A stretch of DNA of 64,000 bases from the human T2T-CHM13v2.0 reference genome, Homo sapiens. Position numbers and translations under genes: made by a program. Of the stretch, positions 24,871 through 39,510 are shown piece by piece. The stretch lies in the NCBI RefSeq assembly GCF_009914755.1, contig NC_060929.1, one strand, 5' to 3'. A model generated the notes under the pieces. It searched no databases. It had not been told where the DNA came from and saw only the letters and a list, made by a program, of their open reading frames with translations. The first letter of the stretch is position 1. Each line of letters opens with the position of its first letter.

Positions 24871-26969
24871 CATGCACTTTTCCTTGAAACTGCATCCCTT
24901 TTCCCTGAAGATGAAGCTTGAAAGAACTCTAAGAGGTTAAGCATGGAGCTGATGGGCAAGCCACAGGCAGAAAGAGTAGCTGTGCAGCCAGGCTCCTGGC
25001 CAGGGAGGGCAGATAAGGAGGGGAGGCAAAGTTTGGTAAACAGGAAGCTAATCTATGGGCAAGAATCATTTTCTTCAGCATCCTGACCTCTCCTAAAATG
25101 TTCTCCACTGGTCCCTGCTAGGACAAAGGAATTACCACCAGACTAGAGTCAGGAGTCCTGGGCTGGTTCTGCTGTATGACACAGGACAGGTGGCTTGCCT
25201 GGTCTGGGCCACAGCCTCCTCCCCTGTTGATGAGCATGTTGGTTGTTCCAGCACCATGTCAGCCCTAGAAATCTCTGAATTCTTGACCAGATCAGTAATT
25301 GCTCTCTTGCGTTTACTTTTCCTTCAAATAAAGAGATTGGCATACAGGGGAGGAGCCCAGTACAGACGGCATGCTTGGCTCAGGTTCCAGAACCCAGAAA
25401 CCAGACAAGAGTTGGGAAACCATGATGGTGGAGGAGGGTGTGCCACTCCTTACTAGTGCCTAATCTCTTCGAGACACTAATGTTTCAGTATTATCCACAG
25501 ATTCTGATGCCAGGCAGCCCAGATGACTGGGGTCAGTTATTAGCATGCTTCCTGGAGGTGGTTCCCAGGTGCAGGCTACCTGCAGTCTGGCTGGATGGGC
25601 CCTGCACCACACTTGCTTCTGGGAAGCTGGTTTTGGGGTTGCCACAATCTCTGAAAGAATCACTAGGCCACCCTCTGAGTGGGTCCTTCTGTAGGAATTA
25701 TGGATAAAATTGTTCCACTAGTCTTACCTTCTTGGGGAACCCTTCCTGGATTCCCAGGCTGGGCTGGGTGTCCCTGCAGCCTAGCCCCACAGCCCTCCTG
25801 CTTCTCTTTCTCATCACAGTCTTGTTATCTCTACCAACTGTAGGCCTGCCCCACTGATGGTGTGAATAAAGGGACTGGGTCTCTCTAGCACCTAGCATAG
25901 ATCTGATACATAGTGGGTGATCTCTATTGAATGAACGATGAATGAATGAATGAATGAATACATTTAGATAATTCAGATTACTCTTTCTAGCTCAGCAGTG
26001 TAAAGCAGGAAGACATGCTGTCAATATGATTTAGGGCAAGTTTTCAAATCTCTCTGGACCTCAGTTTTACCTCTTGAAAAATAAATATAATAATTTGTCC
26101 TTACTTCATGAGACTATTTTGAAGATTAAATGAGATAATGTATACACTACTACTCACTGTCCTTACTTGAATATTCCTAGGTCCTTGGTGCTACATTAGG
26201 CTACATAGAATGTATTTAAAGTAATAGAGTGGTATTTAATAAATATTCATTTTCTTTCCCCAGAACTACCTTAAATTAATTTGTTGAAAGGACAGATGGA
26301 TGGATGGTTGATGGAAGTAGCAGGCTTCCAGCAGCAGGGGATGGAGTGAGTGTGTGGATACCGCTGGATCAGCAGAAGGTTATACCATTTTAGAGTAACT
26401 ATCTCGGACTTCGGAGAGTTCCTGGGTATGAAGCTTTGGCTTTAATTAAAGTCTCAGCACAGTGTTAAATGCCATTTTATTTTAGGTCATAATTAACGCT
26501 AATGAGATGAGTGGATTACAAAGAGCACACATTTTGAGAAAGTGAAAAACAACATCTGAGCTTGGTGGTTTCCATTTTCGCTTTTCCCCCTCCCATGCTC
26601 TGTTCAATTAAAAGTTTTGAGAAAATATTACAACCATACTCCTTGTCTTTGTGGTAATGAAGCATATTAATTTGAATGTGATGAATACAATATTCCACTG
26701 ACTTTTTTATTCCCTTATCTACAAAAGTTTAAAATAATGGACCAATTAAACCAGGAGAGAAGAATGCAGGGTTTGCCTGGGGATCCAATTCAGCAACCAG
26801 AGAACTGAAAGAACAAAATTTTTTGACGGAGTCTGGGCCAGACTTCATCCCTTACCTATAGCTGACAAACAGTAAGTCAAATTGGGCAGATGTGGACCAG
26901 CGCAGAACACATACTATATTGAGGATCGAAAGGCCAGGTTCCAGACCGTCCTCTAATATTTTCTTAGTG

Positions 26970-36830: not shown

Positions 36831-37800
36831 GAAGTGCCTGCTCTGTTCCCACACTTTACACAGGTTCTCTTATTTGCGTTAAGTTTATTTAAGAAGAGGA
36901 AACTGGGCCTCATGGAGATCTAGGAACTTGCCCAAGGACAGGTCTCTGTGACTCTAAGAGTGCAATCTTCCCTTTTCCCCATGTCAAGCACCTTTCCCCA
37001 CCAGGCTCACTGCTGACAATCCAGTGTACGAAGAAGGGAAATTACCCCCACAGAGCCCAAAAGTTTAGGACATGCCGACAGCATCACTCTTTTGCCTCCT
37101 CATTCTCTCTTTCATTTCCAGAACATTTGCTCACTCAGTGCTGCCCAGTGATACTTAGCCAGCCTGATTACCCATCTAATAATTTCTGATACTAATATAA
37201 AACCTTCCCAAAGACAAATATAACTGAGACGCACTCCAGCTTACCATAGCTTTCCTGGTGGTACAGTTTCCAGGGACATTTCACTGTGTCAAAGCAGGGA
37301 CCACATATGTTCCAGACCAGCTTGTTGGGTTTTTCACTGGGAAGTGAAGACAAATTGTTGTCCCTTTGAAAAAGCATTCATCTCTCCATCTATCTGCGAT
37401 CTAAAGCAATGGGGCTCTTTCTGTATGTCTTTCAAATGGTCTACACTGACACACGTTTTCTCTGAGCTGCCGAGAGAATATGCCATGAGATGTTGCCAGT
37501 GATGGTTACACTCAGCTAGCAGAAGATTAGGGACTGGTTAAACCTTTGGAGAAATTGCCTTGGGAAAAGAGGAAATAAAAGCAAATATTACTATGAAACA
37601 TAGAGATTACCAGGTAGGAGGAGGAGAGAGGTGGAGGGAGGGGTAGGAGTGGAAGGAAGGGAGGGAGGCAGAAAGAGGAAGGCAGACTGGTGGAAAATAA
37701 ACCGTGCACTTTAGAACAGCAGGAAGGGAGGCTTGGAAGCCTGGTTTTCTGGCTTTGAATGACCGCCTAGCGCTTGCCGGTGCGCCAGGGTGCTGTGAGG

Positions 37801-37909
37801 ATGTGGGCAGAGGGCGAGTCCGAAGGGCTCCAGACACTGGGAATAGTGGTGGTCGTGTGCTCCTCCCTGAAACTTTTGCACTACCTCGGACTGATTGACT
37901 TGTCAGACG
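37801..37909 (+). CDS. KCNIP1: Alternative coding first exon of a Kv channel-interacting protein (transmembrane/KISD-type N-terminus, 36 aa + 1 nt), most likely KCNIP1
   Basis: Seen: ATG at 37801 (A at -3, in-frame TAG upstream at 37768-37770), open frame MWAEGESEGLQTLGIVVVVCSSLKLLHYLGLIDLSD, strong phase-1 donor ACG|GTAAGC. Knowledge (recalled): gapless EGL-x13-KLL-x3-GLI[DE] pattern of KChIP4a and close similarity to the KChIP4e N-terminus; KCNIP first exons splice in phase 1 onto the common exon. KCNIP1 is assigned by exclusion of the KCNIP2/3/4 sequences. Confidence 0.85.
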
Positions 37910-38083
37910 GTAAGCGAACCCTGGAGCTTCCCCGTTTTCTGTGAATGTGTTTTTGTGGCTTCGGTTGCTGTGACAGTCGTTTCGAAAATGCACGGAAATG
38001 AGGGCGGAGACCCGAGAGATTTGAAAAAGCCGGGCTGAAACAGCGTGGTATTGGTCCCCGCCTCCCCAGTCGCGCCCCAGTGC

Positions 38084-38104
38084 TGCGCTGTCCGTCGTGC
38101 TGAA
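38084..38104 (-). promoter_or_regulatory. RE1/NRSE (REST/NRSF binding site)
   Basis: Minus strand reads TTCAGCACGACGGACAGCGCA, a 19/21 match to the canonical RE1 consensus TTCAGCACCACGGACAGCGCC with canonical half-site spacing. Confidence 0.85.
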
Positions 38105-39510
38105 ATGTGGTGCGCCTGGGGAGTGCGGGAGCCAGGAAGTTAGGGTCTCCTGCTCCGGCCCTATGAGCATGTGAGTCTTGATGGATTATTAGCTATGGGT
38201 GAGGCCAGCACAACACATCACAATTCTCTCTGAAGCTGTCTGGTAACTACGTATATTGTTGATGGAAGCCAGTGACTTTTAAAAGCCATTATGTTGATTA
38301 ACTTTTTTAAAGAAGTTTAGGAGATTATATGGAGGTAAAAACCTTTGTAAAATGCTAATCACAGTGTCTGACAATTAGAACACATTTAATAAATGTCAGT
38401 TTCTTTGCTCAACCCTTATAAGAACCCTTATTCCAAAGCCACCTCCTCAGCTCTGACTTCAGCTCCATTCCTTAGTGAGAATGGGGTTATAAATCCAGGT
38501 TAACCCGATTGTTTAGGATTAGAAAGTGATTTGGTTTCCAACGTTGAAGGAGTTCAAGAAACAAAGAGTTTTATTTTTCCTCCTTATGAGATATTGTTCC
38601 AAATAGAACACAGTTTGTCTAGATGATTTTTGTCACTTAAAATTAGGCTCCAGGAAAGATTCCAAATTTCATGAGCAATTGGGCTCATAAAACAAGATCA
38701 AACTCCAATAGTGTATATCCAAAGTATGTATAATGTGTATTCGGTGTATATTCTTCCACCACTGCATGGTGTAGACAGAATTTCTCTTCCAAGGGGCACC
38801 ACATGACAAAACCGTACATAATAATGAAATGCATTTGTAGACAAAGGACTAGCTAAAATACCAACTGAAAGTGGGAAGACCAGAAACTGAAGTGTAAGAT
38901 GAGGTAAGCCCTGGAGTAAGAGTCAAGAAATCCACTTTCTATCCATAATCTGTCTCGGTTTAATGTTGGTCAAGTCATTTTTTAAAAAATTCTAGGTCTT
39001 GGTTTCCTTATGATGACTTTAGATCTCTGTTCCTTGGAATTCTAGAGTGATCCAAAGGTTTCTTTGAATTCAGTTTTGTGGGTTGAGACGGGCAGCCAGA
39101 CTGTGAGTCCCTCAGCTCTGCTTCAACCAGAACAGCTCCACTTTACTGTTCAGCATGTTAGCCCTGTATGTAAGGATGTTTTTTAGCTTTAGCTAAAATT
39201 TAGTGACTCTATGACCCTAAGGCCCTGCTTCCCTGAGATTTTGAAAGCTGAAGCACATTCGGAAAACTTTTTCTTCCTTAAAAATCACCTGAAATCTGAC
39301 AATCTGGAAGACTAGTTCTGTCTGCTCCAGCCCTTGGTCCCTTAGATGTGCTTTTCTGAAGATCCAAACTCAACCTGCCAGTCAATATACCAACTGAGCA
39401 GAGCCCCTGTTCTCCACCAGATTTCAAGAGAACATGTTCCATTCCTGTTCAGAGCTTCAGAGCAGCTTCCGCTAAGATTGCACATTAATGCAACAGCGTC
39501 CTATTTTCTT

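What the first reader, a model, noticed from the sequence alone, without database searches (positions are those of the whole stretch)
37801..37915. Hidden first exon encoding a transmembrane (KISD-like) KChIP1 N-terminus
Seen: an intact 36-codon frame, MWAEGESEGLQTLGIVVVVCSSLKLLHYLGLIDLSD, with a hydrophobic core, an upstream in-frame stop and a phase-1 ACG|GTAAGC donor. It is too short for the ORF track. Knowledge (recalled): transmembrane KChIPs (KChIP4a, 4e, 2x, 3x) use such first exons, and KChIP4a/2x/3x reduce Kv4 surface trafficking and alter inactivation. This peptide is about 26/36 identical to the KChIP4e N-terminus as I recall it (MTLEWESEGLQTVGIVVIICASLKLLHLLGLIDFSE). The commonly described KChIP1 N-termini are the myristoylated MGAV... 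form and the MSGC... form. Inference: KCNIP1 has its own little-studied membrane-anchored isoform (...LSD-DKIEDELEM...) that lacks the myristoylated Gly2 and may act on Kv4 channels differently from KChIP1a/b.
Basis: partly seen in the sequence, partly recalled or inferred. Interest (0 to 1): 0.9.

Follow-up and report, generated by a model that had tools for sequence, protein, structure and literature searches.

The report
Conserved hydrophobic alternative first exon of KCNIP1
This is a real, deeply conserved alternative first coding exon of the potassium-channel partner gene KCNIP1; it swaps the usual lipid-modified start for a hydrophobic helix like that of KChIP4e, is missing from the human gene table supplied with the finding, and was not found in the channel papers I could search.

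Summary
ATG 37801, 36 codons, a phase-1 G|GTAAGC donor at 37909/37910 and an in-frame TAG at 37768-37770 are all present.

It is not a chance ORF:
- A six-frame search of the whole assembly finds two copies only: this one and a KCNIP4 exon on chr4.
- The two copies share 26 of 36 residues. Identity by codon position is 78/92/36 %.
- Predicted KChIP1 proteins of chimpanzee, other mammals, birds, reptiles, amphibians, sturgeons, a bichir and a shark start with this peptide joined to the common second exon.
- Conservation stops sharply at the ATG and at the donor.
- The human exon-2 acceptor fits the phase.

The exon is the KCNIP1 counterpart of the KChIP4e exon. It is only a remote relative of the KChIP4a/2x/3x KISD exon (10/26 identities).

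Human RefSeq rows lack it. Reviews list no hydrophobic-N-terminus KChIP1. I could not test human transcription, membrane insertion or the effect on Kv4.

The kind is known. This member is present in automated gene models of other species but appears uncharacterised.

The parts
37600..38200 (.). Small CpG-rich patch around the exon, a candidate promoter region. It is shared head-to-head with the antisense lncRNA start.
   Evidence: GC 0.56 and CpG observed/expected 0.66 (29 CpG), against 0.16 for the whole window. GC 0.53-0.61 here against 0.29-0.46 on either side. Promoter function is inferred, not shown.
37759..37770 (+). Three-codon upstream ORF (ATG ACC GCC TAG). Its TAG (37768-37770) is the in-frame stop that closes the frame upstream of the start codon.
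37801..37909 (+). Coding part of the alternative first exon of KCNIP1: ATG, 36 codons and the first base (G) of the split Asp-37 codon.
   Evidence: sequence. (orthologous proteins, 30-36 of 36 identical). (KCNIP4 paralogue; codon-position identity 78/92/36 %). (phase fits the exon-2 acceptor at window 75498, outside the window).
37834..37896 (+). Codons 12-32 (TLGIVVVVCSSLKLLHYLGLI): the hydrophobic helix-length segment, with Cys20, Lys24 and His27 conserved.
   Evidence: Kyte-Doolittle 1.89 over 21 residues, 1.92 over 19. (C, S, L, K, L, H, L, G, I invariant across the KCNIP1, KCNIP4 and fish KCNIP2 forms).
37910..37915 (+). 5' splice site GTAAGC of the 37.6-kb intron that runs to the common exon at window 75498.
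   Evidence: In 20 of 20 unspliced KCNIP1-type read-through ORFs from other genomes, the residues after the exon are Gly-Lys, as G|GTAAR would give.
37885..38202 (-). First exon of the lncRNA KCNIP1-AS1 (hub table). It overlaps the last 25 bases of the coding exon. Its own donor (GAG|GTAGTG on the minus strand, intron from 37884 down to 37559) lies inside the coding exon.
   Evidence: Hub annotation for the coordinates. Canonical GT (37884-37883, minus strand) and AG (37560-37559) read.

Best explanation
Window 37801-37909 is the coding part of a genuine, selectively maintained alternative first exon of KCNIP1, presumably driven by its own internal promoter in the CpG-rich patch around it. It splices by a phase-1 donor (G37909|GTAAGC) to the common KCNIP1 exon 37.6 kb downstream. 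The product is a 232-residue KChIP1 in which the first 36 residues replace the myristoylated N-terminus with a hydrophobic helix. The exon is the ohnologue of the KChIP4e first exon of KCNIP4. It belongs to an exon family that dates at least to the jawed-vertebrate ancestor and is distantly related to the KISD exons of KChIP4a, 2x and 3x. Inferred mechanism: the hydrophobic, near-invariant helix (about residues 12-32) ties the EF-hand core to internal (ER or perinuclear) membranes and/or contacts a specific partner. That would give Kv4 complexes built with this isoform different trafficking and gating from those built with KChIP1a/b. I expect behaviour closer to KChIP4e than to KChIP4a. Shown: the exon anatomy, coding constraint, paralogy, the phase fit, and its use in gene models of other species. 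Inferred: the promoter, human expression, membrane insertion and the effect on Kv4.
For: - Anatomy.
- Genome-wide, the peptide has two loci only, KCNIP1 and KCNIP4.
- KCNIP1 exon against KCNIP4 exon: 12 identical codons, 14 synonymous-only differences, 10 replacements. Identity by codon position is 78/92/36 %, and both exons end G|GTAA. BLASTP gives 25/33, E 1e-10.
- Of the 124 proteins stored, I count 46 of KCNIP1 type (my signature classification plus reading). 21 are spliced to the D/N-K-x-ED... common exon, 20 are unspliced read-throughs that all continue Gly-Lys, and 5 have other junctions.
- Named carriers include Pan, Capra, Galemys, Cricetulus, birds, lizards, a snake, a turtle, a frog, a caecilian, sturgeons, Polypterus and the shark Chiloscyllium.
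- The exon is as conserved as the core: Zootoca 33/36 against 182/196, Pseudophryne 32/36 against 176/196.
- Flanking in-frame translation diverges immediately upstream of the Met and after the donor.
- Human exon-2 acceptor: ttccag|AT AAG ATT gives G|AT = Asp.
- The P0013 core matches human KChIP1 chains at every position but one, E 1e-133.
- In a tree of the cores, carriers fall into a KCNIP1 group and a KCNIP2 group (each 100/100) and a KCNIP4 grade (tetrapod members 96/91). Each has its own exon subtype.
- Hydropathy 1.92. CpG patch.
Against: - None of the 7 human RefSeq KCNIP1 transcripts in the hub table uses the exon. No human RNA, CAGE, ribosome or peptide data could be examined here.
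- The gene models that carry the exon are automated predictions, and I could not see their transcript support.
- Some unnamed genomic ORFs are weaker. P0012 has Leu in place of the start Met and 30/36 identities. P0033 has 30/35. P0021 and P0026 have a changed C-terminal end. Some lineages may have relaxed or lost the exon.
- Membrane insertion is uncertain. Hydropathy (1.92) is lower than KChIP4e (2.36) or KChIP4a (2.39), and Lys24 and His27 sit mid-helix.
- The 2014 review reports that a KChIP4e N-terminus-eGFP fusion was not found in the membrane fraction (passages of PMC3973911).
- The antisense lncRNA overlaps the exon and could interfere with it.
Confidence: 0.88

Rival explanations
1. 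The exon is a conserved vertebrate coding exon, but in humans it is silent or nearly so. On this view it is a relic whose locus now mainly produces the antisense lncRNA KCNIP1-AS1.
For: The hub table shows 7 RefSeq KCNIP1 transcripts, none with this exon. The cDNA-based KCNIP1-AS1 has its first exon and donor overlapping the coding exon, and its first intron (37559-37884) covers the start codon and upstream region. No paper in the library mentions such an isoform.
Against: The start codon, all 36 codons and the donor are intact, and the peptide is identical to the chimpanzee model. It is 35/36 identical to several other mammals. The CpG-rich patch is retained. Absence from an annotation is weak evidence for a cell-type-restricted first exon.
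Confidence: 0.1
2. The exon is used, but its helix is not a membrane-spanning anchor. Instead it is a specific protein-binding helix. It could dock in the KChIP hydrophobic groove, as the KChIP4a N-terminus does in crystal structure 3DD4, or bind another partner. Any membrane association would then be secondary.
For: The segment is near-invariant residue by residue, including polar Cys20, Lys24 and His27, across the KCNIP1, KCNIP4 and fish KCNIP2 forms. That is more than a lipid anchor needs. The KChIP4e N-terminus-eGFP fusion was not in the membrane fraction, and the KChIP4a helix lines the groove in vitro (passages of PMC3973911 and of PMC6104694). Hydropathy is moderate.
Against: The review reports perinuclear localisation for KChIP4e and membrane-spanning N-termini for the related KISD forms in cells. 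The Kyte-Doolittle value exceeds the usual 1.6 threshold.
Confidence: 0.3
3. The isoform is a functional KISD equivalent (a 'KChIP1x'). Like KChIP4a, 2x and 3x, it would retain Kv4 in the ER and suppress fast inactivation.
For: There is remote homology to the KChIP4a exon (10/26 identical, 18/26 similar, E 2e-6 for the pair). HMMER aligns the related fish N-terminus to the KISD of 3dd4. LKL aligns with the VKL motif, whose Leu is critical (with passages of PMC3973911). The donor phase is the same.
Against: - The true KISD exon family has copies in KCNIP4, KCNIP2 and KCNIP3 but none on chr5.
- This exon's close relative is KChIP4e. The 2014 review says KChIP4e raises Kv4.2 surface expression, does not slow inactivation and lacks the LIVIVL retention motif.
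- The residues aligned to LIVIVL are VVVVCS here.
- The peptide alone finds nothing in PDB sequences at E<=10.
Confidence: 0.12
4. It is a chance open frame, or a conserved non-coding element (an enhancer or lncRNA exon), rather than coding sequence.
For: The frame is short. It lies in a GC-rich patch where open frames are frequent: a 187-aa antisense ORF spans it. An annotated lncRNA exon overlaps it.
Against: Third-position identity to the paralogue is 36 %, against 92 % at second positions, with 14 synonymous-only codon differences. Conservation is bounded exactly by the ATG and the donor. 21 gene models splice it in frame to the KChIP core.
Confidence: 0.01

Closest known systems
KChIP4e (the KCNIP4 first exon; one of the 'tmKChIPs' of Jerng and Pfaffinger)
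   Same: It is a paralogous first coding exon. 26 of 36 aligned residues are identical, and BLASTP gives 25/33, E 1e-10. Both have a phase-1 G|GTAA donor and sit upstream of the common exon. The acidic N-flank, hydrophobic stretch, Cys, Lys-Leu-Leu-His and Gly-Leu-Ile-Asp are shared. These two are the only copies of this exon type in the human genome.
   Different: It lies in KCNIP1, not KCNIP4. It is one residue shorter and less hydrophobic (1.92 against 2.36), with Tyr28 for Leu and Ser21 for Ala. KChIP4e has been cloned and tested, according to the review passages. I found no such work for the KCNIP1 form.
KISD N-termini of KChIP4a, KChIP2x and KChIP3x
   Same: Each is a first exon of similar length ending in the same phase. 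They share a hydrophobic helix and the pattern EGL...hydrophobic run...K-L-L...G-L-I-E/D. Similarity is 10/26 identical and 18/26 similar, E 2e-6.
   Different: It is a separate exon family. The KISD query finds KCNIP4, KCNIP2 and KCNIP3 but not KCNIP1. The LIVIVL ER-retention motif named in the review aligns to VVVVCS. Functional equivalence is not expected from what is reported for KChIP4e.
KChIP1a / KChIP1b (the myristoylated isoforms; MANE NM_014592.4)
   Same: The common exons and EF-hand core are the same. P0013 residues 35-232 match the human KChIP1 chain 7f3f_E at every position but one.
   Different: The first exon differs, so Gly-2 and N-myristoylation are absent. The membrane or partner contact would come from a hydrophobic helix instead of a lipid.
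Automated gene models: 'Kv channel-interacting protein 1 isoform X2 [Pan troglodytes]' and the X-isoforms of lizards, frogs, sturgeons and others
   Same: The chimpanzee model begins with exactly the window's 36 residues and continues into the common exon. So the isoform already exists in databases as a prediction.
   Different: These are predictions in other species. The human RefSeq rows given with the finding lack the exon. No functional or expression study was found.

Membership tests
4e-type hydrophobic KChIP N-terminal exon (KChIP4e-like) | Significant sequence homology to the KChIP4e first exon | tested here: met
   E 6.5e-9 in a whole-genome six-frame search; 25/33, E 1e-10; 26/36 identical, 78/92/36 % by codon position.
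4e-type hydrophobic KChIP N-terminal exon (KChIP4e-like) | First coding exon of a KCNIP gene, with a phase-1 donor compatible with the common exon | tested here: met
   (ATG, upstream stop, G|GTAAGC). (acceptor ttccag|AT AAG ATT at window 75498; G+AT = Asp). (KCNIP4 exon ends G|GTAAAG).
4e-type hydrophobic KChIP N-terminal exon (KChIP4e-like) | Spliced onto the EF-hand core in transcripts | tested here: inconclusive
   Met in 21 predicted KCNIP1-type proteins of other species, but these are gene models. Human transcripts could not be examined, and the hub table lists none.
4e-type hydrophobic KChIP N-terminal exon (KChIP4e-like) | Hydrophobic segment long enough to span a bilayer | tested here: met
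   19-residue Kyte-Doolittle mean of 1.92 (residues 14-32) and 21-residue mean of 1.89. This is a computed propensity only.
4e-type hydrophobic KChIP N-terminal exon (KChIP4e-like) | Membrane or perinuclear localisation of the protein | not testable with these tools
   Needs expression and fractionation. The review passages are themselves ambiguous for KChIP4e.
KISD (KChIP4a/2x/3x inactivation-suppressor domain) | Membership of the KISD exon family by sequence | tested here: inconclusive
   Pairwise BLASTP gives 10/26, E 2e-6. The KISD query finds no chr5 copy (3 matches of 4 candidates), and the peptide finds no PDB chain at E<=10.
KISD (KChIP4a/2x/3x inactivation-suppressor domain) | ER-retention motif LIVIVL (KChIP4a residues 12-17, as named in PMC3973911) | tested here: not met
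   In the alignment these positions read VVVVCS in the KCNIP1 peptide.
KISD (KChIP4a/2x/3x inactivation-suppressor domain) | VKL motif with the critical Leu-21 (PMC3973911) | tested here: inconclusive
   The BLASTP alignment puts LKL on VKL, so Lys and Leu are kept. The review instead places LLH of KChIP4e at that position, so the alignment is not settled.
KISD (KChIP4a/2x/3x inactivation-suppressor domain) | Suppression of Kv4 fast inactivation and reduced surface expression | not testable with these tools
   Electrophysiology is required.
N-myristoylated KChIP1 (KChIP1a/b) | Gly at position 2 | tested here: not met
   Residue 2 is Trp. It is Trp, Leu or Arg in the orthologues.
KChIP / neuronal calcium sensor EF-hand proteins (the product as a whole) | EF-hand core identical to KChIP1 | tested here: met
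   (P0013 against 7f3f_E, 446.8 bits). (EF-hand Pfam families on residues about 105-214; no Pfam family on the N-terminal 36 residues).

The most novel reading that the evidence does not exclude
The 4e-type N-terminus is an ancient module, present by the jawed-vertebrate ancestor, and it acts as a specific interaction helix rather than a passive anchor: polar Cys20, Lys24 and His27 are invariant. On this reading KCNIP1 encodes an unrecognised fifth hydrophobic-N-terminus KChIP that gives KChIP1-expressing interneurons a second, functionally distinct mode of Kv4 regulation. In humans its use would be gated by the head-to-head antisense transcript KCNIP1-AS1, whose first exon, donor and first intron overlap the coding exon, its start codon and its presumed promoter.
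Probability: 0.15. Interest if true: 0.75.

Novelty: new member of a known kind. Interest (0 to 1): 0.5.

Why it matters
- **Interpretation of KChIP1 data.** KChIP1 is treated in the Kv4 literature as a 'classical', myristoylated or cytosolic subunit. Work on interneuron firing types contrasts 'KChIP1' with the hydrophobic-N-terminus form KChIP4e (PMC7269670). If KCNIP1 makes its own 4e-type isoform, gene-level RNA counts and pan-KChIP1 antibodies lump together subunits that may traffic and gate Kv4 channels differently.
- **Evolution of the family.** The 4e-type exon is as old as the KISD type and was retained differentially: KCNIP1 and KCNIP4 in humans, and KCNIP2 as well in ray-finned fishes.
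- **Annotation.** This is a coding exon missing from the human RefSeq rows supplied. Variants in 37801-37915 would be read as intronic or lncRNA variants.

Tried and rejected
- the 36-aa query was too short for the protein search. I re-sent it as the 47-aa window ORF.
- no KChIP4 protein appeared. I think isoforms are merged under the longest member of each 90 % cluster. For the same reason I do not count the '57 members' of P0013 as carriers. The paralogue was found in the genome instead and by the profile search.
- the peptide alone against PDB sequences gave 0 hits at E<=10.
- **Structure prediction** of the 232-aa isoform (alignment A1) was not accepted (tool not ready). There is therefore no model, no fold search, and no test of whether the helix docks in the groove.
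- **Complex prediction** was not used. A pass would only mirror 3DD4, and a failure would say nothing.
- **Papers not held:** Jerng and Pfaffinger 2008 (PMC2602920), Pruunsild and Timmusk 2005 and Pruunsild and Timmusk 2012 (DOI recalled). These are the primary papers most likely to mention extra KCNIP1 exons, so I cannot exclude a mention there.
- the hit for 'KChIP1e' was 'KChIP1EF...' mutants, which is irrelevant.
- script error, fixed.
- my regex for the acceptor found nothing, so I read the acceptor from the printed sequence.
- **Lamprey record P0099:** it nests among teleost KCNIP2 with a branch length of 0.014. I treat it as possible contamination and do not count it.
- **Orthologue dN/dS:** not computed, because no vertebrate DNA other than this assembly was available.
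- **Pfam:** no family covers either exon type.

Full report
**The observation**

The sequence is as described. ATG sits at 37801-37803 and is followed by 36 sense codons reading MWAEGESEGLQTLGIVVVVCSSLKLLHYLGLIDLSD. Base G37909 comes next, then GTAAGC at 37910-37915. Read through the donor, the frame is a 47-aa ORF. Ten codons upstream there is an in-frame TAG at 37768-37770, which also closes a three-codon upstream ORF that starts at 37759. Position -3 of the start codon is A. The donor matches the consensus at -1 and at +1 to +5.

**More than chance**

A six-frame search of the whole 3.1-Gb assembly with the 36 residues gave two candidates and two matches. One is the exon itself (E 4.8e-16). 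The other is chr4:20965404-20965505 on the minus strand (E 6.5e-9, 74 % identity). That second locus is an ATG-initiated frame reading MLTLEWESEGLQTVGIVVIICASLKLLHLLGLIDFSE, followed by G|GTAAAG. It lies 133 kb upstream of a KCNIP4 common exon hit at chr4:20832170.

This is the KChIP4e exon. Macaque and dog KChIP4 proteins start with exactly this peptide joined to DSVEDELEM.

Codon by codon, the KCNIP1 and KCNIP4 exons share 12 identical codons, differ only synonymously at 14, and differ by replacement at 10. Identity is 78 %, 92 % and 36 % at codon positions 1, 2 and 3. This is the signature of long purifying selection on the sense frame. It rules out the 187-aa antisense ORF, or a non-coding element, as the conserved entity.

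**Orthologues**

Protein searches returned 41 proteins at E<=10 among 61 candidates, 27 of 29, and 196 at E<=1 among 8000 scored with a profile, of which the best 120 were listed.

The chimpanzee model 'Kv channel-interacting protein 1 isoform X2' (P0013, 232 aa) begins with the identical 36 residues and continues DKIEDELEM.... From residue 35 onward it matches the human KChIP1 chain 7f3f_E at every position but one.

Of the 124 proteins stored, I classify 46 as KCNIP1-type (a signature script plus reading):
- 21 are spliced to the common exon. They come from Pan, Galemys, Capra, Cricetulus, a Laurasiatheria UniRef entry, four birds, lizards, Naja, Gopherus, Pseudophryne, three sturgeon species (four records), Polypterus and the shark Chiloscyllium.
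- 20 are unspliced genomic read-throughs. All continue Gly-Lys, as a G|GTAAR donor would give.
- 5 have other junctions. One is a snake model that inserts EFARWYYLSQRD. By recall only, this resembles the optional KChIP1b mini-exon.

Exon identity to human is 30-36 of 36 in the 37 hits that cover the exon. The exon is as conserved as the EF-hand core: Zootoca 33/36 against 182/196, and Pseudophryne 32/36 against 176/196.

In-frame translation just upstream of the Met and just after the donor differs freely between species, while the 36 codons stay fixed. Weaker copies exist among the unnamed contigs: P0012 has no Met and 30/36 identities, P0033 has 30/35, and P0021 and P0026 have an altered end.

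**Fit to the rest of the gene**

The common KCNIP1 exons lie downstream of the window. The first has the acceptor ttccag|AT AAG ATT GAA at chr5:171257498, which is window 75498. So G37909 + AT reads Asp and the product continues KIEDELEM. The intron is 37910-75497.

**The exon family**

The KChIP4a (KISD) exon was located by a degenerate pattern taken from the 3dd4 alignment. It reads MNLEGLEMIAVLIVIVLFVKLLEQFGLIEAGLE plus G|GT. As a query it finds copies in KCNIP4, KCNIP2 (chr10, 79 %, E 4.9e-7) and KCNIP3 (chr2, 41 %, E 0.14), but none on chr5 (3 matches of 4 candidates).

The 4e-type exon finds only KCNIP4 and KCNIP1. A fish KCNIP2-type query adds no chr10 copy. The extra hits on chrX (E 9.4) and chr16 (E 2.4) are noise.

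The two exon types are remotely related: 10/26 identical, 18/26 similar, E 2e-6 for the pair. All five human exons end in the same phase.

The profile search shows the 4e type on three paralogues:
- KCNIP1, from mammals to a shark.
- KCNIP4, from mammals to Callorhinchus.
- KCNIP2, in many teleosts and in Amia.

A tree of the core domains separates a KCNIP1 group and a KCNIP2 group, each at 100/100. The KCNIP4 carriers form a grade beside KCNIP1, with the tetrapod members at 96/91. The mudskipper protein's core is closest to KChIP2 in the PDB, at 338 bits against 278 for KChIP1.

So the exon type predates the divergence of jawed vertebrates. It was kept in KCNIP1 and KCNIP4 in the human lineage. 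A lamprey record nests inside the teleosts and is not counted.

**Surroundings**

The exon sits in a 600-bp CpG-rich patch at 37600-38200, with GC 0.56 and CpG observed/expected 0.66 against 0.16 for the window. A purine-rich tract at about 37610-37690 lies upstream.

The hub table places exon 1 of KCNIP1-AS1 at 37885-38202 on the minus strand. Its donor (GAG|GTAGTG) and the acceptor of its next exon are canonical. The antisense RNA therefore overlaps the last 25 coding bases, and its first intron (37559-37884) covers the start codon and the presumed promoter.

**How it probably works**

- *Shown:* a selectively maintained first coding exon that replaces the Gly-2 myristoylation start with a hydrophobic stretch. 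The Kyte-Doolittle value is 1.92 over residues 14-32, against 2.36 for KChIP4e and 2.39 for KChIP4a.
- *Inferred:* an own promoter; membrane association or a specific helix contact; and altered Kv4 trafficking and gating.

The nearest relative is KChIP4e. From passages of the 2014 review PMC3973911, KChIP4e is perinuclear, raises Kv4.2 surface expression, does not slow inactivation and accelerates recovery. Its N-terminus-eGFP fusion was not in the membrane fraction, and it lacks the LIVIVL retention motif. By contrast, the eLife paper PMC7269670 (passages) assumes that all hydrophobic-N-terminus KChIPs, including 4e, fail to promote surface expression.

I therefore expect 4e-like rather than 4a-like behaviour, and I regard true membrane spanning as about even odds. 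The residue-by-residue invariance of the segment, including Cys20, Lys24 and His27, suggests a specific binding surface.

**What is known**

- PMC3973911 lists KChIP1a, 1b and 1c only, and names 2x, 3x, 4a and 4e as the transmembrane forms.
- PMC10377897 lists five human KCNIP1 isoforms, two of them unnamed.
- PMC6104694 mentions KIS domains only for 4a, 2x and 3x.

For all of these I saw passages, not whole texts. The searches found no description of a hydrophobic-N-terminus KChIP1 and no paper on KCNIP1-AS1. The primary papers of 2005, 2008 and 2012 are not held, and I could not consult Ensembl/GENCODE.

**Verdict**

The kind of element is known (KChIP N-terminal variants with a hydrophobic helix). 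This member is already predicted in other species' gene models. It is absent from the human RefSeq rows supplied and, as far as I could search, uncharacterised.

Noticed in passing
window 37885-38202 (-) and 37559-37884 (-): KCNIP1-AS1 starts head-to-head with the sense exon. Its first exon overlaps the last 25 coding bases. Its splice donor lies inside codons 27-29. Its first intron contains the start codon and the upstream region. This could allow transcriptional interference.
   Followed up: partly
window 37610-37690: A purine-rich (GGA/GGAGG) tract lies about 110-190 bases upstream of the ATG. In-frame upstream translations of read-through ORFs from other amniotes are also Gly/Glu/Arg-rich at the matching distance. 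Human 'LEQQEGRL' is echoed by 'AEQQEGKL' in a bird-like ORF (P0010). This hints at a conserved 5' UTR or promoter.
   Followed up: partly
window 26264-26425: The exon the hub lists for 'other transcripts' has a canonical acceptor (ccccag|) and donor (TGG|gtatga). The one frame I translated contains stops. It looks like a non-coding or 5' UTR internal exon.
   Followed up: partly
P0099 (named Lampetra planeri, 35-kb contig): A 'KCNIP2-like, partial' record nests among teleost KCNIP2 proteins with a very short branch. It may be teleost contamination of the lamprey assembly.
   Followed up: partly
P0042 (Alosa alosa hypothetical protein, 92 aa): It contains two tandem copies of the KCNIP2-type exon peptide in one frame. 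This is either an exon duplication or an assembly artefact.
   Followed up: no
P0027 (Thamnophis), P0097 (Gekko), P0104 (Monodelphis): Some gene models join the hydrophobic first exon to an extra small exon before the common exon. The hydrophobic start may therefore combine with optional second exons.
   Followed up: no
L017 (chr10:102717771-102717857, -) and L018 (chr2:95853500-95853586, +): The human KChIP2x-type and KChIP3x-type first exons were recovered intact. Each is an ATG-initiated hydrophobic frame ending in Glu plus G|GT.
   Followed up: partly
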